From the sequence record NC_105507.1: a stretch of 49,995 nucleotides of DNA. The stretch is one strand, 5' to 3'. The notes beneath the pieces were generated by a model. The model saw only the letters and a program-made list of their open reading frames with translations. It did not search any database and was not told the origin of the DNA. Source of the DNA: a phage. The position numbers and the translations under genes are program-made. This document shows positions 5,617 to 22,630 of this stretch, in pieces. How positions within the stretch are numbered: the first letter of the stretch is position 1; the number at the start of each line of letters is the position of its first letter.

Positions 5617-6732
5617 ATGAAAAATGTAAAAATTACAGATGAGCAATTCAAGATCGAACGGGCGGCAGGCAAGACATATAAACAGATCGCTCAAGAGTAC
5701 GGAATGAATGTGAGAAGCGTCGAGCGTCGCGCGGCGCGTCTTGCAAAGCAAGGACAGTTATCGACCATCGGAGCGCCTGGTTTTGGTGTTCATGGTGAGT
5801 CAGTAATGACTGACAAAGAAGGAAATATAATCCTCAAGTGGACCAAAACCAGCAAGGATAAAGAGCAATTAGAGGCACTGATGCGCGCAGCTATGGAGGC
5901 GTTTAGCGAGGAAGTGCCGCGATTAGATCCAGTTCCATTGCAGGAGCGTAATTATAATGAAACGCTTTCATTGTATCCGATCTTTGACATGCACTTAGGA
6001 GCTATGGCCCATAAGCACGAATGCGGCGAAAATTGGGATACTGCGACGGCAGAGCGCGTTATGAATAACTTTATCGACTATGCTTTGATGTGCGCACCGG
6101 ACAGCGAAAAGGCTGTTATCCTGATTGGTGGCGATATGCTGCATAGCGACGGCCTGGAGGCGGTGACACCTGCAAGCGGTCACGTACTTGATCAAGATAG
6201 CCGATATGCAAAATTGGTTTACGTTGCAATACGTGCAATGCGCCGCGCAATTAATAAAATGCTGTTAAAGCATAAACATGTGGAGGTCCAGATCGTAGAG
6301 GGGAATCACGACCAATCAGGAATGATTTGGCTACGCGCAGCAATGGCGGCAGCATATGAGAACGAGCCGCGCGTTTACGTTGATGTTTCTCCTCGCGTTG
6401 TTCACCACACGCAATACGGAAAAACTTTCCTTGCGTACCATCACGGGCACACAGTGCGTAAACCGGAGACTTTGCTAATGATGTGCGCGTCAGATTGGCG
6501 GGAGGACTTCGGAAACTCAAAAACTATGTATGCGCACGTAGGGCACTGGCATCACCAGACCGTGACGGAAACGTCGCTTGGCATCGTTGAGGTGCATAGC
6601 ACCCTGGCGGCAAAAGACGCATACGCCGCGCGCGGTGGCTGGAGATCTCGACGCCGTGCAGCGGTTATCATTTACGACAAGGAGCATGGGGAAGTTGGGC
6701 GATTTGTTCACTATCCAGAAATGATGAATTGA
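5617..6732 (+). CDS. calcineurin-like metallophosphoesterase with N-terminal HTH-like region
   Basis: motifs DMH, GGDMLHSD, GNHD, HHGH, GHWHH; start at ATG 5617 avoids overlap with upstream gene. Confidence 0.7.
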   Translation: MKNVKITDEQFKIERAAGKTYKQIAQEYGMNVRSVERRAARLAKQGQLSTIGAPGFGVHGESVMTDKEGNIILKWTKTSKDKEQLEALMRAAMEAFSEEVPRLDPVPLQERNYNETLSLYPIFDMHLGAMAHKHECGENWDTATAERVMNNFIDYALMCAPDSEKAVILIGGDMLHSDGLEAVTPASGHVLDQDSRYAKLVYVAIRAMRRAINKMLLKHKHVEVQIVEGNHDQSGMIWLRAAMAAAYENEPRVYVDVSPRVVHHTQYGKTFLAYHHGHTVRKPETLLMMCASDWREDFGNSKTMYAHVGHWHHQTVTETSLGIVEVHSTLAAKDAYAARGGWRSRRRAAVIIYDKEHGEVGRFVHYPEMMN

Positions 6733-14275: not shown

Positions 14276-14310
14276 TTACTATCTCCTGAGCGGTTCGTTT
14301 CGATGTGTGT

Positions 14311-14353
14311 AATGTACCCGATCAGGCGGCCTGAGTTTTAACAAAAAGCGCTA
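14311..14353 (-). promoter_or_regulatory. TAGCAC-box promoter-like cassette (leftward early)
   Basis: box variant TAGCGC, TCAGG/CCTGA hairpin, TACATT at 22-bp spacing. Confidence 0.5.
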
Positions 14354-14383
14354 TTTGACGGTTAGCACCAGGATTGTGATCGA

Positions 14384-14474
14384 AATAATCAAAAGTAATC
14401 ATTCGTAATCAAATCACGTCAAAATGATGATTGCCTTTGCAAATTTGATGAGAAAAGTAATCACGTTTAATCAT
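14384..14474. repeat. phased iteron-like array (TAATCA x5)
   Basis: TAATC at about 14386, 14396, 14406 (10-bp phasing) and 14458, 14468. Confidence 0.5.
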
Positions 14475-14649
14475 TGGTTGCAGTGGAGATAGTGAAACCT
14501 TCCCCTCTTGCCTCACTTTTCCGCCTGGCTGTCAGTGGTTGTTGTCTTTTGTTCACCCCTGTTACCGATTTCAGGCGGCGTGTTTCCGCGCGGTTTTCCG
14601 GTGTAGCGAAAACGGAAAAAACAAAGAAAATCCTCTATAATACATTGAA

Positions 14650-14810
14650 AATAAAGATTATTTATTTATATATATCTATAATGTTTTCTTTTTGTTCTCA
14701 CTGTTACAGTGCTTTTTGTTGGTTATGGTGTGGTTGTGTGTGGGTATATATGGATAGTTGCGCGCGCGGCGGATTGCATATGTATATATACTTTTTCCGG
14801 CGGATTGCGT
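14650..14810. repeat. AT/GT-rich intergenic element, copy A (homologous to 44060-44205)
   Basis: shared blocks TTTATTTATTTA, T-rich CTTGTT, GT-rich GGTT repeats, CATRTGTATRTATATA..CCGGCG; contains direct repeat CGGCGGATTGC x2. Confidence 0.5.
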
Positions 14811-14909
14811 TAACAGCGTGAACAGAAAAATAACAGCCGCGAAATCAATAACTTGCGCATGATTTTGTAGTTTTTCGATATTGGTAACGTTTTGAATACA
14901 ACAAAAACA

Positions 14910-14937
14910 TTGACACGCACCAAATAGCTTTTATAAT
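14910..14937 (+). promoter_or_regulatory. consensus sigma70-type promoter (rightward early)
   Basis: TTGACA-16 bp-TATAAT, about 30 bp upstream of RBS/ATG 14969. Confidence 0.7.
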
Positions 14938-14968
14938 GCGCCAACAGTCAACAACTGGAGGAAAGGAA

Positions 14969-17238: not shown

Positions 17239-17949
17239 ATGAAAAAATACACTTTCGAACTATGGGGCAAGAAGTACGAATTAATCACCAGCAAGCCGAT
17301 TGTTATCGTTGACCTGGACGGCACACTATCGGACGGATCGCATCGTTTGCATTTGCTGCCAACTGAAAACTTACACCTTACGGAATCGTGGAGCGAATTT
17401 AACAGGGCCGCCGCCGGAGATTCACCGATTAAAAGCACGATCGCGGTTATTAACGGTTTGTGGGTGTCGGGATTTGCCATCGTCATCTTGACCGGACGCA
17501 GCGACGAGGTGCGCTATGAAACCTGCAAATGGTTGAATGAGAGCGGCGTGAAGTTTGACGAAATCATCATGCGCCGCCAGGAGGACAACCGAAAGGATAC
17601 GGTTATTAAAGAAGAAGCCTTGCGCGCTATTGGCCTGGACAACATTGTTTGCGCCTTTGACGATTCGCCGAACGTGGTTAAGCACTTCCGCAGCTTGGGG
17701 ATCACAACCTATCAGGTCACGGAATACGACAAGCCACACGCTCACATACAATCTCACGGCGTGGAATCAATAAAGATCACGAAGCGCGCCCGATTCGTCG
17801 ACAGCAAAGACAGCATGGTTAATGCCAGCTTTATCAAAGGCAAGGTTTATGATGTTCATAGCCATGATAAAAACCGATTCTTTTTGTGGGATGAAAAAGG
17901 TTTTGGCTGGTGCTTTGAACACGACGACGGCGATTTTGTTAATGCGTAA
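17239..17949 (+). CDS. HAD-superfamily phosphatase (nucleotidase / polynucleotide 3'-phosphatase-like)
   Basis: DLDGT motif I, LTGRS motif II, FDDS motif IV. Confidence 0.75.
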   Translation: MKKYTFELWGKKYELITSKPIVIVDLDGTLSDGSHRLHLLPTENLHLTESWSEFNRAAAGDSPIKSTIAVINGLWVSGFAIVILTGRSDEVRYETCKWLNESGVKFDEIIMRRQEDNRKDTVIKEEALRAIGLDNIVCAFDDSPNVVKHFRSLGITTYQVTEYDKPHAHIQSHGVESIKITKRARFVDSKDSMVNASFIKGKVYDVHSHDKNRFFLWDEKGFGWCFEHDDGDFVNA

Positions 17950-17992
17950 TAGCACTTTTTGTTAAAACATCTTAACGGGCTTGCGGTATAGT
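17950..17992 (+). promoter_or_regulatory. TAGCAC-box promoter-like cassette
   Basis: exact box after TAA stop; TATAGT in loop of GGGCTT/AAGCCC hairpin at 22-bp spacing. Confidence 0.55.
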
Positions 17993-18023
17993 AAGCCCAT
18001 CAACAACAAGCGAGGATTAAATC

Positions 18024-18287
18024 ATGGCTAACAAGATCGAATTTTTCAAAGCGGTAGACATTATTGATGGTGCTCCTAGCTTCTTTGCCATCCATTCCAT
18101 TGACGGCAAGGATATTGGGTACAACGTTATCCGTCGAGATGGAATCTCAAAACTTAGCGATCTGGTAGGGCATATTGTGTCAAACGGGAAGTGCGCATGG
18201 CCCGATTCGCCACGAGAGCCACGCCGCCTCGACATGGTAGAGCCTGTTCTGCTTTACACTCTGGTAGTAGAAGGAGAAAATAAATGA
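18024..18287 (+). CDS. hypothetical protein
   Basis: GAGG RBS. Confidence 0.5.
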   Translation: MANKIEFFKAVDIIDGAPSFFAIHSIDGKDIGYNVIRRDGISKLSDLVGHIVSNGKCAWPDSPREPRRLDMVEPVLLYTLVVEGENK

Positions 18288-18469
18288 TTTGGTTACTTGC
18301 TTTTTTGGTTGTTTTTCTTTACATTTCAGGCTTGTTTACGTTCCGCGCGTTGGTGAAATATTCTGACGCGACAGACAAAGACGATAAAATCGTTCTCGCT
18401 TTCTGGTTTGTTTGGGTGTGGTTAGCAATTTACGAGATCATCAGAGACAAACAGAAATTTGAGTGGTGA
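18284..18469 (+). CDS. small membrane protein
   Basis: hydrophobic 61-aa ORF, ATGA overlap. Confidence 0.45.
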   Translation: MIWLLAFLVVFLYISGLFTFRALVKYSDATDKDDKIVLAFWFVWVWLAIYEIIRDKQKFEW

Positions 18470-18528
18470 TTCTTGCTATGGCGCATTCATGCAGTGCGCC
18501 ATGTTGAGAAAACCTAAAGGGGGAGACG

Positions 18529-18648
18529 ATGCGTAACTTTGAAAAAATCATTACCAAAAAGAAGCGTCGCGGGTACGATGAGCATGTGGAGCTTGTGAAA
18601 GCAACGCAAGAAGCGCAACGAAGACAAGAAGCGCGGGAAAAAATTTAA
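18529..18648 (+). CDS. small basic protein (39 aa)
   Basis: below track cutoff; GGGGGAG RBS; preceded by perfect inverted repeat ATGGCGCA..TGCGCCAT. Confidence 0.3.
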   Translation: MRNFEKIITKKKRRGYDEHVELVKATQEAQRRQEAREKI

Positions 18649-18678
18649 TGCGATTTTTCGCTATGGAGATCATTAATC

Positions 18679-19269
18679 ATGAAGCGAGACATTATCATCC
18701 TTAATGGGCCGCCAGGTTGCGGGAAGGACACTATTGCAGCTTACCTAACGGGCCATCGTTACCCAGCGGTTAAGGCGTCATTCAAACAGCCGATGTTCGA
18801 TATTGCGTTTTCCATGCTTGGCCCGACTCGATATGATGAGTTTATTGACCTGTACAACGACCGAGAGCAAAAAGAAAAGCCTCAAGTTATCTTAGGCGGC
18901 AAGTCACCTCGACAATTCATGATCTGGATTAGCGAGGATGTAATGAAGCCAGTCTTTGGGGAGCAGTATTTCGGGCGTCGAATGGTTGAAGAGATTAACG
19001 AGATGTACCGAGATTTGACGGTTGTGATCAGTGATGGCGGATTCCCCGAAGAAATCAAGCCGCTTGTTAAGGCAGGGCATGAAGTGCATATTTGCCGATT
19101 GCATCGCGACGGCTTCACGTTTGCTGGCGATTCGAGAGACTACATTGACCTGAGCGGTTATCACTATCGAATCCATCACTATGACTTCCACTTGCAGGAC
19201 GGCAAGCCGGAACTGGCTGTAAACGAGATCGTCAATGCTGTCAAATGGAAGCACACACAGATTAAATAG
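18679..19269 (+). CDS. P-loop nucleotide kinase (dNMP kinase-like)
   Basis: P-loop GPPGCGKDT resembling the GKDT loop of phage dNMP kinases; GGAG RBS. Confidence 0.7.
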   Translation: MKRDIIILNGPPGCGKDTIAAYLTGHRYPAVKASFKQPMFDIAFSMLGPTRYDEFIDLYNDREQKEKPQVILGGKSPRQFMIWISEDVMKPVFGEQYFGRRMVEEINEMYRDLTVVISDGGFPEEIKPLVKAGHEVHICRLHRDGFTFAGDSRDYIDLSGYHYRIHHYDFHLQDGKPELAVNEIVNAVKWKHTQIK

Positions 19270-22600: not shown

Positions 22601-22630
22601 TTACCCGCCGCACGGCGGGTTTTTTATTGC
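22601..22630 (+). terminator. rho-independent terminator
   Basis: ACCCGCC..GGCGGGT stem plus T-run. Confidence 0.7.

What the first reader, a model, noticed from the sequence alone, without database searches (positions are those of the whole stretch)
17239..19269. Separate HAD phosphatase and P-loop kinase genes in the early operon
The HAD phosphatase (DxDGT, FDDS motifs) and the kinase with a GKDT-type P-loop are separated by two small genes. The kinase loop resembles phage dNMP kinases more than the GKST loop of polynucleotide kinase. Together they could serve nucleotide salvage or, alternatively, end-healing of cleaved tRNA.
Basis: partly seen in the sequence, partly recalled or inferred. 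Interest (0 to 1): 0.5.

Follow-up and report, generated by a model that had tools for sequence, protein, structure and literature searches.

The report
Known T1-phage phosphatase and dNMP kinase pair
Both genes are real but ordinary: they are the already-annotated phosphatase ("polynucleotide kinase", a misnomer) and deoxynucleotide kinase of T1-like coliphages, a conserved gene pair that most likely processes nucleotides from degraded host DNA rather than repairing tRNA.

Summary
The window is a T1-like coliphage (Drexlerviridae, Warwickvirus; 98.8% identical to phage KMB46). Both ORFs exist at the stated coordinates. 17239-17949 encodes a DxDxT/HAD phosphatase with no kinase domain. 18679-19269 encodes a P-loop kinase with a GKDT loop. 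Three small ORFs lie between them, not two.

The order phosphatase then kinase, on one strand, holds in 71 of 86 related loci. That includes unrelated podophages where the two genes overlap. Two metagenomic proteins fuse both domains, so the two are probably functionally coupled.

No RNA or DNA ligase homolog was detected in the window, so T4-style tRNA repair is unsupported. T1 and TLS curators already annotate both genes, and published work proposes a nucleotide-supply role. Verdict: already known, low interest. The residual open question is whether the pair acts as a split end-healing enzyme.

The parts
14910..14937 (+). Sigma-70 consensus promoter-like site (TTGACA-16-TATAAT, 12/12) at the head of the same-strand gene block that holds both genes
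   Evidence: This is a pattern match only. The total number of promoter-like sites in the region is not above the shuffle expectation, but this is the only perfect match.
17239..17949 (+). Kinase-less Pnkp-type HAD (DxDxT) phosphatase, 236 aa. The HAD core spans residues 1-~174. It includes a conserved cap insert, HRLHLLPTxxLHLTESWSEFN, which AF2 models poorly. An extra C-terminal beta domain spans residues ~183-236 (about 17785-17946).
17977..18000 (+). 8-bp GC-rich hairpin in the intergenic space after the phosphatase gene, with no U-tract
   Evidence: MFE -20.6 kcal/mol, z -2.2. Not reported as terminator-like. Function unknown.
18024..18287 (+). Small ORF, 87 aa, unknown function (intervening gene 1)
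   Evidence: PHROG 12951/25318, unknown function. Annotated as hypothetical in KMB46.
18284..18469 (+). Small hydrophobic ORF, 61 aa, start overlapping the previous stop codon (intervening gene 2)
   Evidence: PHROG 9755, E 1.2e-22, unknown function.
18529..18648 (+). It is shortened relative to the 49-aa KMB46 version by a 2-nt difference in an A-run.
18679..19269 (+). P-loop kinase of the T4 gp1 / T5 Dnk dNMP-kinase lineage, 196 aa. Motifs: GPPGCGKDT (10-18), SFKxP (34-38), DRExKE (61-66), SPRQF (76-80), DGGF (119-122), GDSRDY (150-155).
22603..22620 (+). Terminator-like hairpin with a T-run, closing the gene block just before the small terminase gene
5617..6732 (+). SbcD/Mre11-like 'DNA repair exonuclease' (PHROG 704 homolog). 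In other phages it lies directly beside the phosphatase-kinase pair; here it is about 10.5 kb away.
   Evidence: tblastn with Era103 gp26 (5e-91) and the L092 exonuclease (1e-93). ORF limits and the Kalemo annotation. PHROG 704 assignment of the query proteins.

Best explanation
These are two separately encoded enzymes of deoxynucleotide and DNA-end metabolism, inherited together as a phosphatase-then-kinase module.

The kinase is a T4 gp1 / T5 Dnk-type dNMP kinase. It uses ATP to convert deoxynucleoside 5'-monophosphates to diphosphates (inferred from family membership).

The phosphatase is a Pnkp-type DxDxT acyl-phosphatase that has no kinase domain. It forms an aspartyl-phosphate on D25, with D27 as acid-base and Mg2+ held by D25/D142 (inferred from conserved residues). 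It removes a terminal phosphate from deoxynucleotides or DNA ends. A 3'-phosphate is most likely, as in T4 Pnkp, which turns over 3'-dNMPs rapidly.

T1-type phages encode no DNA polymerase, ligase or nucleotide-synthesis enzymes, and they degrade the host chromosome and reuse its nucleotides. In that setting, the pair would clean up and re-phosphorylate the breakdown products made by phage nucleases (elsewhere an SbcD-like exonuclease sits beside the pair), so that they enter the dNTP pool.

Shown here: family membership, conserved catalytic residues, conserved linkage and fusion. Inferred: substrates, phosphate regiospecificity and physiological role.
For: Kinase:
- PHROG 139, shared with T4 gp1 and T5 Dnk.
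- hhalign to T5 Dnk 95.4% and to T4 gp1 85.5%.
- Shared GKDT loop and colinear R78, D119 and E125.
- A Dnk-family gene on a mobile element supplies thymidylate kinase function in P. putida (PMC10653934).

Phosphatase:
- Pfam HAD_PNKP.
- hhalign to T4 Pnkp 96%.
- All T4 catalytic residues conserved.
- T4 Pnkp hydrolyses 3'-dTMP at 24 per second (PMC3592404).

Linkage:
- The phosphatase lies upstream on the same strand in 71 of 86 kinase loci; in 17 of them the genes overlap or abut.
- The same pair follows an SbcD-like exonuclease in the Autographiviridae phages Era103 and ZPAH7B.
- Fusion proteins P0300 and P0307 carry both domains.

Context:
- T1 and TLS degrade host DNA and reuse the nucleotides. 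TLS and KanT1 authors annotate the same two genes and propose a nucleotide-supply role (PMC11447400, PMC13164509).
- T5 uses the same two PHROG families (Dmp and Dnk), plus the metallophosphatase A1, for host-DNA catabolism.
Against: No member of either T1-type subfamily has been assayed.

The kinase does not reach Pfam's DNMK model, and profile searches of PDB sequences do not retrieve 1DEK. It is therefore a divergent branch whose substrate could differ.

A physiological source of 3'-phosphorylated deoxynucleotides in T1 infection is not established.

If the phosphatase were a 5'-nucleotidase like T5 Dmp, it would compete with the kinase for the same substrates instead of feeding it.

Fusion and tight linkage fit an end-healing enzyme equally well.

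15 of 86 kinase loci lack the phosphatase within the available flank (some flanks were short), and the phosphatase family is more widespread in phage records than the kinase family (3261 versus 1465 records). Each protein can therefore function alone.
Confidence: 0.55

Rival explanations
1. The two proteins form a split, Pnkp-like end-healing enzyme. The phosphatase removes 3'-phosphates (or 2',3'-cyclic phosphates) and the kinase phosphorylates 5'-OH ends of broken DNA or RNA. Host LigA, or the adjacent phage DNA ligase in some podophages, then seals the break. Under this reading the kinase module was recruited from the Dnk lineage rather than the Pnk lineage.
For: The phosphatase's nearest characterised relatives are both polynucleotide end-healing enzymes. 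Gene order is conserved, with overlapping genes in 17 loci. Two natural fusions have the order phosphatase then kinase, which I recall to be the order in mammalian PNKP (own knowledge, not checked). In Era103 the pair lies between an SbcD-like nuclease and an ATP-dependent DNA ligase. Xanthomonas phage Bosa has a stand-alone HAD_PNKP gene next to a DNA ligase. Relatives of the phosphatase carry Cys-rich tails that look like zinc ribbons and could bind nucleic acid.
Confidence: 0.15
2. The pair provides T4-style tRNA repair: it heals tRNAs cut by an anticodon nuclease.
For: Only the homology of the phosphatase to T4 Pnkp and to Pnkp1 of the Pnkp1-Rnl-Hen1 RNA repair complex.
Against: tblastn found no Rnl1 or Rnl2 homolog in the window (best E 0.07). 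No ligase is annotated in Kalemo or in the parts of the curated T1 record that were read. From my own knowledge, E. coli RtcB joins 3'-P/2',3'-cyclic-P ends to 5'-OH ends directly, so removing the 3'-phosphate would work against it. The kinase is of the Dnk type.
Confidence: 0.04
3. The phosphatase is a T5 Dmp-like 5'-dNMP phosphatase that drains or reshapes the deoxynucleotide pool. This could deny host-derived dNMPs, alter dNTP ratios or evade pool-sensing defences. The kinase would have a complementary base specificity or act at a different time.
For: T5 Dmp falls in the same PHROG 415 as the window protein (3.6e-57 versus 5e-66). hhalign of the two families aligns the whole HAD core, including the DLDGT..HR segment and cap (142 columns, E 7.8e-5). 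Dmp shares the same catalytic set: D22, D24, R33, R88, D136, K140, D160 and D161. T5 carries the same Dmp + Dnk family pair. Dmp mutations allow escape from the dTTP-sensing Clover defence (PMC12265719).
Against: The window family is much closer to T4 Pnkp (96% probability, E 4e-9) than to Dmp (61.5%). Precomputed Pfam assigns PF25109 to its homologs and PF26880 only to Dmp homologs. [quoted passage not shown] Fusing a 5'-dNMP phosphatase to a dNMP kinase would set two activities against each other on the same substrate.
Confidence: 0.15
4. The two enzymes have unrelated roles (for example DNA 3'-end repair and dNMP phosphorylation) and are linked only because they are inherited as a cassette.
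For: Each occurs without the other: 15 of 86 kinase loci lack the phosphatase nearby, and Chaseviridae and phiEco32-like phages have the kinase alone. The phosphatase family is found in about twice as many phage records as the kinase family. In the window the genes are separated by three unrelated ORFs, and in T1 by a homing-type HNH endonuclease.
Against: The order and strand are invariant in all 71 linked loci, across Drexlerviridae and two subfamilies of Autographiviridae at 40-50% identity. There are two independent fusions.
Confidence: 0.1

Closest known systems
Phage T1 gp CPTT1_014 'polynucleotide kinase' and CPTT1_016 'deoxynucleotide kinase' (also TLS Gp09/Gp14; KMB46, Kalemo and other Warwickvirus genes)
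   Same: These are orthologous genes in the same left-arm block upstream of the terminase, in the same order and on the same strand. The T1 kinase is 46% identical, and the KMB46 region is 98.8% identical at the DNA level. Curators reached the same assignments using HHpred against 5UJ0 and T4 DNK.
   Different: What lies between the two genes differs: an HNH endonuclease in T1, three small ORFs here, and four in Kalemo. The window's phosphatase has an extra C-terminal beta domain that T1's 176-aa protein lacks.
T4 polynucleotide kinase-phosphatase (Pnkp, PDB 1LTQ/5UJ0) and bacterial Pnkp1 (4XRP)
   Same: The phosphatase shares the DxDxT fold, all catalytic residues and Pfam family PF25109.
   Different: There is no fused kinase domain. 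A longer, strongly conserved cap insert follows motif I. The nearby kinase belongs to a different P-loop lineage (Dnk, not Pnk), and no partner RNA ligase is present.
T4 gp1 dNMP kinase (PDB 1DEK) and T5 Dnk
   Same: Same PHROG 139, the same GKDT P-loop, colinear Arg/Asp/Glu residues and the closest solved fold. Both enzymes have demonstrated dNMP kinase activity according to their record annotations and the cited literature.
   Different: The window protein is 45-55 residues shorter in the helical NMP-binding domain, only 22-23% identical, and not detected by Pfam DNMK. Its base specificity is unknown.
T5 Dmp (5'-dNMP phosphatase) + Dnk + A1 metallophosphatase
   Same: The same pair of PHROG families (415 + 139), plus a metallophosphoesterase nuclease, in a phage that destroys host DNA.
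   Different: The T5 genes are dispersed and separated in time. [quoted passage not shown] The sequence relation of the phosphatase to Dmp is distant.
Mammalian PNKP
   Same: The metagenomic fusions P0300 and P0307 have a HAD phosphatase followed by a P-loop kinase. That this is the domain order of mammalian PNKP is my own knowledge; it was not checked here.
   Different: The kinase lineage is unrelated, there is no FHA domain, and no sequence comparison with mammalian PNKP was made here.

Membership tests
T4 gp1 / T5 Dnk dNMP kinase family (PHROG 139; Pfam DNMK PF21448) | Profile match to the family model that also contains the characterised enzymes | tested here: met
   PHROG 139 E 2.7e-51 over residues 1-189. 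T4 gp1 scores 1.8e-65 and T5 Dnk 1.4e-51 against the same PHROG.
T4 gp1 / T5 Dnk dNMP kinase family (PHROG 139; Pfam DNMK PF21448) | Pfam DNMK (PF21448) at the gathering score | tested here: not met
   No DNMK hit at E up to 0.1. T4 gp1 hits at 3e-107, and T5 Dnk hits only partially at 4e-11. The window protein is a divergent branch.
T4 gp1 / T5 Dnk dNMP kinase family (PHROG 139; Pfam DNMK PF21448) | GxxxxGKD-T P-loop (Asp in place of the usual Ser/Thr) and colinear conserved Arg, Asp and Glu | tested here: met
   G15, K16, D17, T18, R78, D119 and E125 are invariant across the window family, T5 Dnk and T4 gp1.
T4 gp1 / T5 Dnk dNMP kinase family (PHROG 139; Pfam DNMK PF21448) | Fold closest to the solved T4 enzyme | tested here: met
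T4 gp1 / T5 Dnk dNMP kinase family (PHROG 139; Pfam DNMK PF21448) | ATP:dNMP phosphotransferase activity | not testable with these tools
   Needs an enzyme assay.
Polynucleotide 5'-kinase (kinase domain of T4 Pnkp) | GxxGxGK-S/T loop with essential Ser16 | tested here: not met
   The loop is GPPGCGKDT, with Asp at the Ser16 position. Essential residues are listed in PMC2831316.
Polynucleotide 5'-kinase (kinase domain of T4 Pnkp) | Acceptor-site Asp35 (general base) and Arg38 after strand 2; overall homology beyond the P-loop | tested here: not met
HAD_PNKP (PF25109), DxDxT polynucleotide 3'-phosphatase domain | Pfam match above the gathering score | tested here: met
   73.8 bits against a cut-off of 27.6, covering model positions 3-140 of 143.
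HAD_PNKP (PF25109), DxDxT polynucleotide 3'-phosphatase domain | Catalytic set of T4 Pnkp (D165 nucleophile, D167 acid-base, S211, K258, D278; also R176, R213, D254, D277) | tested here: met
   The window equivalents are D25, D27, T85, K124, D142, R36, R87, D120 and D141. All are invariant in alignment A2 except T85, which is at least 90% conserved. Roles of D165, D167, S211, K258 and D278 come from PMC3592404. The essentiality of R176, R213, D254 and D277 is from my own recollection of the T4 mutational literature.
HAD_PNKP (PF25109), DxDxT polynucleotide 3'-phosphatase domain | Fold closest to solved Pnkp phosphatase domains | tested here: met
Bifunctional Pnkp (kinase and phosphatase in one polypeptide) | A kinase domain fused to the phosphatase | tested here: not met
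   The 236-aa protein has no P-loop. The sequence beyond the HAD core is a small beta domain. The deposited names 'polynucleotide kinase' and '3'-phosphatase, 5'-polynucleotide kinase' are therefore misleading.
T5 Dmp 5'-dNMP phosphatase family (PF26880) | Family-level sequence match | tested here: inconclusive
   Same PHROG 415. hhalign between the two families gives only 61.5% probability (E 7.8e-5, 142 columns). Precomputed Pfam lists PF26880 for Dmp homologs only and PF25109/PF03767 for the window's homologs.
T4-type tRNA repair pathway (Pnkp + Rnl1) | A partner RNA ligase encoded by the phage | tested here: not met
   tblastn of T4 Rnl1, T4 Rnl2 and two phage ATP-dependent DNA ligases against the window gave a best E of 0.07. 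No ligase is annotated in Kalemo or in the parts of the curated T1 record that were read.

The most novel reading that the evidence does not exclude
The phosphatase and the Dnk-type kinase could together constitute a second, independently assembled polynucleotide phosphatase/kinase. It would be split in T1-like and SP6-like phages and fused (phosphatase then kinase) in some uncultured phages. The 5'-kinase module would derive from the dNMP-kinase lineage. The enzyme would heal 3'-P/5'-OH breaks in phage DNA, made by host defences or by phage nucleases, for sealing by LigA or a phage ligase.
Probability: 0.12. Interest if true: 0.6.

Novelty: already known. Interest (0 to 1): 0.2.

Why it matters
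As it stands, this is routine annotation of a T1-like phage. Three practical points come out of it.

1. The widespread label "polynucleotide kinase" for this phosphatase-only protein is wrong. PHROG 415 carries that label and also contains T5's 5'-dNMP phosphatase, so automated annotation propagates the error.

2. The conserved gene order and the natural fusions show that the phosphatase and the Dnk-type kinase are a functional unit. That gives a concrete, cheap biochemical question: is the phosphatase specific for 3' or 5' phosphates, and does the kinase accept dNMPs or 5'-OH ends? The answer would show how polymerase-less, ligase-less T1-type phages recycle host DNA.

3. Phage nucleotide-pool enzymes are now known to trigger or evade pool-sensing defences (the Clover/Dmp case). 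The true activities of this common pair therefore bear on predicting phage-host outcomes.

Tried and rejected
- **PDB sequence searches with the kinase.** Both the single sequence and the profile returned only generic P-loop hits and missed 1DEK. The link to T4 gp1 needed fold comparison and hhalign.
- **NCBIfam.** It gave nothing above cut-off for either protein.
- **PB1-like phage gene (PHROG 4889).** I checked whether this 346-aa "polynucleotide kinase/phosphorylase" is another phosphatase-kinase fusion. Its C-terminal half is unrelated to the kinase (hhalign probability 0.2%), so it was rejected.
- **C-terminal domain of the phosphatase as a separate gene.** I looked for it in relatives and found it only fused, and only in the closest subgroup. 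PHROG 16302 matched only weakly (E 0.009).
- **PYps3T ORF050.** It is annotated "dNMP kinase", but it is an HNH endonuclease (PHROG 1985), so it is not a second kinase.
- **Literature.** Searches for experimental work on the T1-type proteins, or for their role in defence escape, found only annotation-level statements. The retron Eco2 paper mentions polynucleotide kinase only as a reagent.
- **Not possible with these tools.** I could not obtain residue-level structural superpositions, and I could not model a phosphatase-kinase complex.
Full report
**Identity of the window.** The 2.5 kb around the finding is 98.8% identical to Escherichia phage vB-Eco-KMB46 (Drexlerviridae, Tempevirinae, Warwickvirus). 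It is 93-98% identical to dozens of other T1-like coliphages. In those records the two genes are already annotated. The first is called "3'-phosphatase, 5'-polynucleotide kinase", "polynucleotide kinase" or "kinase-phosphatase". The second is called "dNMP kinase" or "ATP-binding protein".

**Checking the observation.** ORF 17239-17949 (+, 236 aa) and ORF 18679-19269 (+, 196 aa) are present as stated.
- The first has DLDGT at residues 25-29 and FDDS at 140-143.
- The second has GPPGCGKDT at residues 10-18.
- Three small ORFs lie between them, not two: 18024-18287 (87 aa), 18284-18469 (61 aa, hydrophobic) and 18529-18648 (39 aa, with a strong ribosome-binding site).
- The third ORF is 49 aa in KMB46. 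The window differs by two bases in an A-run, which shifts the frame.
- Both genes sit in a tightly packed same-strand block. It begins after a perfect sigma-70 consensus at 14910-14937 and ends at a terminator-like hairpin at 22603-22620, just before the small terminase gene. This fits "early operon" but does not prove it.

**The phosphatase.**
- It scores 73.8 bits on Pfam HAD_PNKP (cut-off 27.6) and 5e-66 on PHROG 415.
- The only significant solved relatives by sequence are Pnkp1 (4XRP) and T4 Pnkp (1LTQ/5UJ0).
- The AF2 model has a confident core. The cap (residues 28-64) is poorly modelled, and the C-terminal beta domain (183-236) is confident.
- Mapping onto T4 numbering gives D25/D27 = D165/D167, R36 = R176, T85/R87 = S211/R213, D120 = D254, K124 = K258 and D141/D142 = D277/D278. 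All are invariant across T1-type homologs except T85, which is at least 90% conserved. The roles of D165, D167, S211, K258 and D278 are described in PMC3592404.
- The protein has no P-loop and no kinase domain, so "polynucleotide kinase" is a misnomer.
- Most T1-type homologs are about 179 aa. Only the Warwickvirus-like subgroup carries the C-terminal domain, always fused. Some relatives carry Cys-rich tails that look like zinc ribbons instead.

**A complication for the phosphatase.** T5 Dmp is the experimentally known deoxynucleoside-5'-monophosphatase. It falls in the same PHROG 415 (3.6e-57, full length).
- A profile of Dmp homologs aligns with the T1-type family over the whole HAD core. 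That includes the DLDGT..HR segment and the cap, but the probability is only 61.5% (E 7.8e-5).
- The T1-type family against T4 Pnkp gives 96% (E 4e-9). Dmp against T4 Pnkp gives 11%.
- Dmp conserves the same catalytic constellation.
- So the window protein is nearer to the 3'-phosphatases. Even so, neither family membership nor catalytic residues fix which phosphate it removes.
- T4 Pnkp itself hydrolyses 3'-dNMPs efficiently (24 per second on 3'-dTMP; PMC3592404). A mononucleotide substrate is therefore compatible with Pnkp-type ancestry.

**The kinase.**
- Pfam and NCBIfam see only a generic P-loop. PDB sequence searches do not find a specific relative.
- PHROG 139 matches at 2.7e-51. T4 gp1 and T5 Dnk, both characterised dNMP kinases, belong to the same PHROG.
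- hhalign gives 95.4% to T5 Dnk and 85.5% to T4 gp1 over 65-75 columns. Against T4 Pnkp, only the 24 P-loop columns align.
- A joint alignment shows GKDT, R78, D119 and E125 invariant from the window protein through T5 Dnk and T4 gp1.
- The residues essential for T4 polynucleotide kinase are K15, S16, D35, R38, D85 and R126 (PMC2831316). Ser16 is Asp here, and no Asp-x-x-Arg motif follows strand 2.
- A Dnk-family gene on a P. putida genomic island supplies thymidylate kinase function in vivo (PMC10653934). This supports inferring activity within this lineage.
- The family is large: 4428 representatives at 50% identity.

**Are the two genes a unit?**
- In T1 itself the two genes are separated only by an HNH endonuclease.
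- I examined 86 loci that encode a kinase homolog: 80 from IMG/VR, five from GenBank phage records and the window. In 71 of them the phosphatase lies upstream on the same strand.
- In 17 loci the genes overlap or abut. In 14 the gap is 31-200 nt, in 4 about 483 nt, and in 36 more than 600 nt. The junction is evidently an insertion hotspot.
- The pair is also present, with overlapping genes, in the Autographiviridae phages Era103 and ZPAH7B. There it follows an SbcD-like "DNA repair exonuclease" (PHROG 704). In Era103 it precedes an ATP-dependent DNA ligase.
- The KanT1 paper reports the same exonuclease-PNK-dNMP kinase arrangement in some Drexlerviridae (PMC13164509).
- In the window, the PHROG 704 homolog lies elsewhere, at 5617-6732.
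- Two metagenomic proteins are natural fusions of an N-terminal HAD_PNKP domain, a linker and a C-terminal kinase of this family. They are P0300 (403 aa, seen on three contigs, one of 60.7 kb) and P0307 (461 aa). P0300 is followed by a PHROG 704 exonuclease.
- P0307 keeps all catalytic residues. P0300 has substitutions at the positions equivalent to K119/D120 and T18 (read from the sequences).
- Conserved order plus fusion argues for functional coupling.
- The coupling is not obligatory. 15 of the 86 loci lack the phosphatase nearby (some had little upstream flank). Chaseviridae and phiEco32-like phages have the kinase alone. The phosphatase family is found in 3261 phage records against 1465 for the kinase family.

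**tRNA repair.** tblastn with T4 Rnl1, T4 Rnl2 and two phage ATP-dependent DNA ligases finds nothing in the window (best E 0.07). The annotated Kalemo genome and the parts of the curated T1 record that were read contain no ligase. With a Dnk-type kinase and no sealing enzyme, the T4 Pnkp/Rnl1 scenario is not supported.

**Most likely function.** According to the TLS paper, T1 and TLS have no apparent DNA polymerase genes, and both degrade the host chromosome and reuse its nucleotides (PMC11447400). I therefore favour a nucleotide-processing module, with confidence about 0.55.
- The kinase would phosphorylate dNMPs released from host DNA.
- The phosphatase would remove terminal phosphates, most likely 3'-phosphates, from deoxynucleotides or DNA ends made by phage nucleases.
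- T5 offers a parallel. It uses the same two PHROG families (Dmp, Dnk) plus the metallophosphatase A1 for host-DNA catabolism.

The rivals, with confidences, are:
- a split Pnkp-like DNA end-healing enzyme (about 0.15), favoured by the fusions and by the ligase neighbour in Era103 but disfavoured by the kinase's lineage and motifs;
- a Dmp-like 5'-nucleotidase that reshapes the pool (about 0.15);
- mere cassette linkage (about 0.10);
- tRNA repair (about 0.04).

**Novelty.** The genes, their family assignments and the nucleotide-supply hypothesis are already in the records and the literature. What this analysis adds is modest:
- a correction of the "polynucleotide kinase" label;
- the observation that PHROG 415 mixes Pnkp-type phosphatases with T5 Dmp;
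- quantified synteny of the pair;
- the two fusion proteins.

No member of either T1-type subfamily appears to have been assayed, so substrate specificity remains open. Simple enzymology would settle it.

Noticed in passing
window 18529-18648 (difference near 18597-18600): A 2-nt difference in an A-run (GTGAAAGC here, GTGAAAAAGC in KMB46) shifts the frame of the third small ORF. It ends after 39 aa here, whereas the 49-aa KMB46 version abuts the kinase start codon. This could be homopolymer length variation or a sequencing error.
   Followed up: partly
window ~17785-17946 (residues ~183-236 of the phosphatase): A confidently modelled small beta domain (pLDDT above 90) is fused to the C-terminus of the phosphatase, only in the Warwickvirus-like subgroup. 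Other T1-like phages have no tail, or have Cys-rich tails that look like zinc ribbons (P0122, P0155, P0163, P0185, P0193). No family assignment was found (weak PHROG 16302 match, E 0.009).
   Followed up: partly
window 17323-17431 (residues ~29-64 of the phosphatase): The cap insert HRLHLLPTxxLHLTESWSEFN is nearly invariant across T1-type homologs and both fusion proteins, yet AF2 models it with pLDDT 35-45. It may be a flap that becomes ordered on binding a substrate or partner. T4 Pnkp lacks about 10 residues of it, and T5 Dmp has a similar segment.
   Followed up: partly
PHROG 415, seen through T5 dmp (L008:124-858, minus strand): PHROG 415 is labelled 'polynucleotide kinase', yet it contains T5 Dmp (a 5'-dNMP phosphatase) and kinase-less HAD proteins. 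Annotation pipelines that use it therefore propagate a wrong product name.
   Followed up: yes
GenBank records MG065669 (Campylobacter phage A123) and MG065679 (A13a), seen: About 20-39 unannotated 'Campylobacter phage' records of roughly 47-50 kb match this E. coli T1-like region; two sampled records carry kinase genes 79% and 86% identical at the protein level. They look like T1-like coliphages, so the host assignment or sample purity is questionable.
   Followed up: no
window 17977-18000: An 8-bp GC-rich hairpin (GGGCUUGC...GUAAGCCC) lies between the phosphatase gene and the next ORF. It has no U-tract, so it is not a canonical terminator. It could be an RNA processing or stability element.
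   Followed up: partly
window 14300-14940: This is a divergent intergenic region between the minus-strand genes to the left and the plus-strand block. It contains the only perfect sigma-70 consensus in the 9 kb scanned (14910-14937).
   Followed up: no
L005:1236-1760 (Yersinia phage PYps3T ORF050): This ORF is annotated 'deoxynucleoside monophosphate kinase' but matches PHROG 1985, an HNH endonuclease (E 5.5e-58). It is a mis-annotation in the deposited record.
   Followed up: yes
window 5617-6732: An SbcD/Mre11-like exonuclease (PHROG 704 homolog, 41-43% identical to the Era103 and L092 proteins). In the Era103 homolog the N-terminus gives only sub-threshold helix-turn-helix Pfam hits (E 0.0015-0.008); the window protein was not scanned. 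In other phages this gene is the immediate neighbour of the phosphatase-kinase pair.
   Followed up: partly
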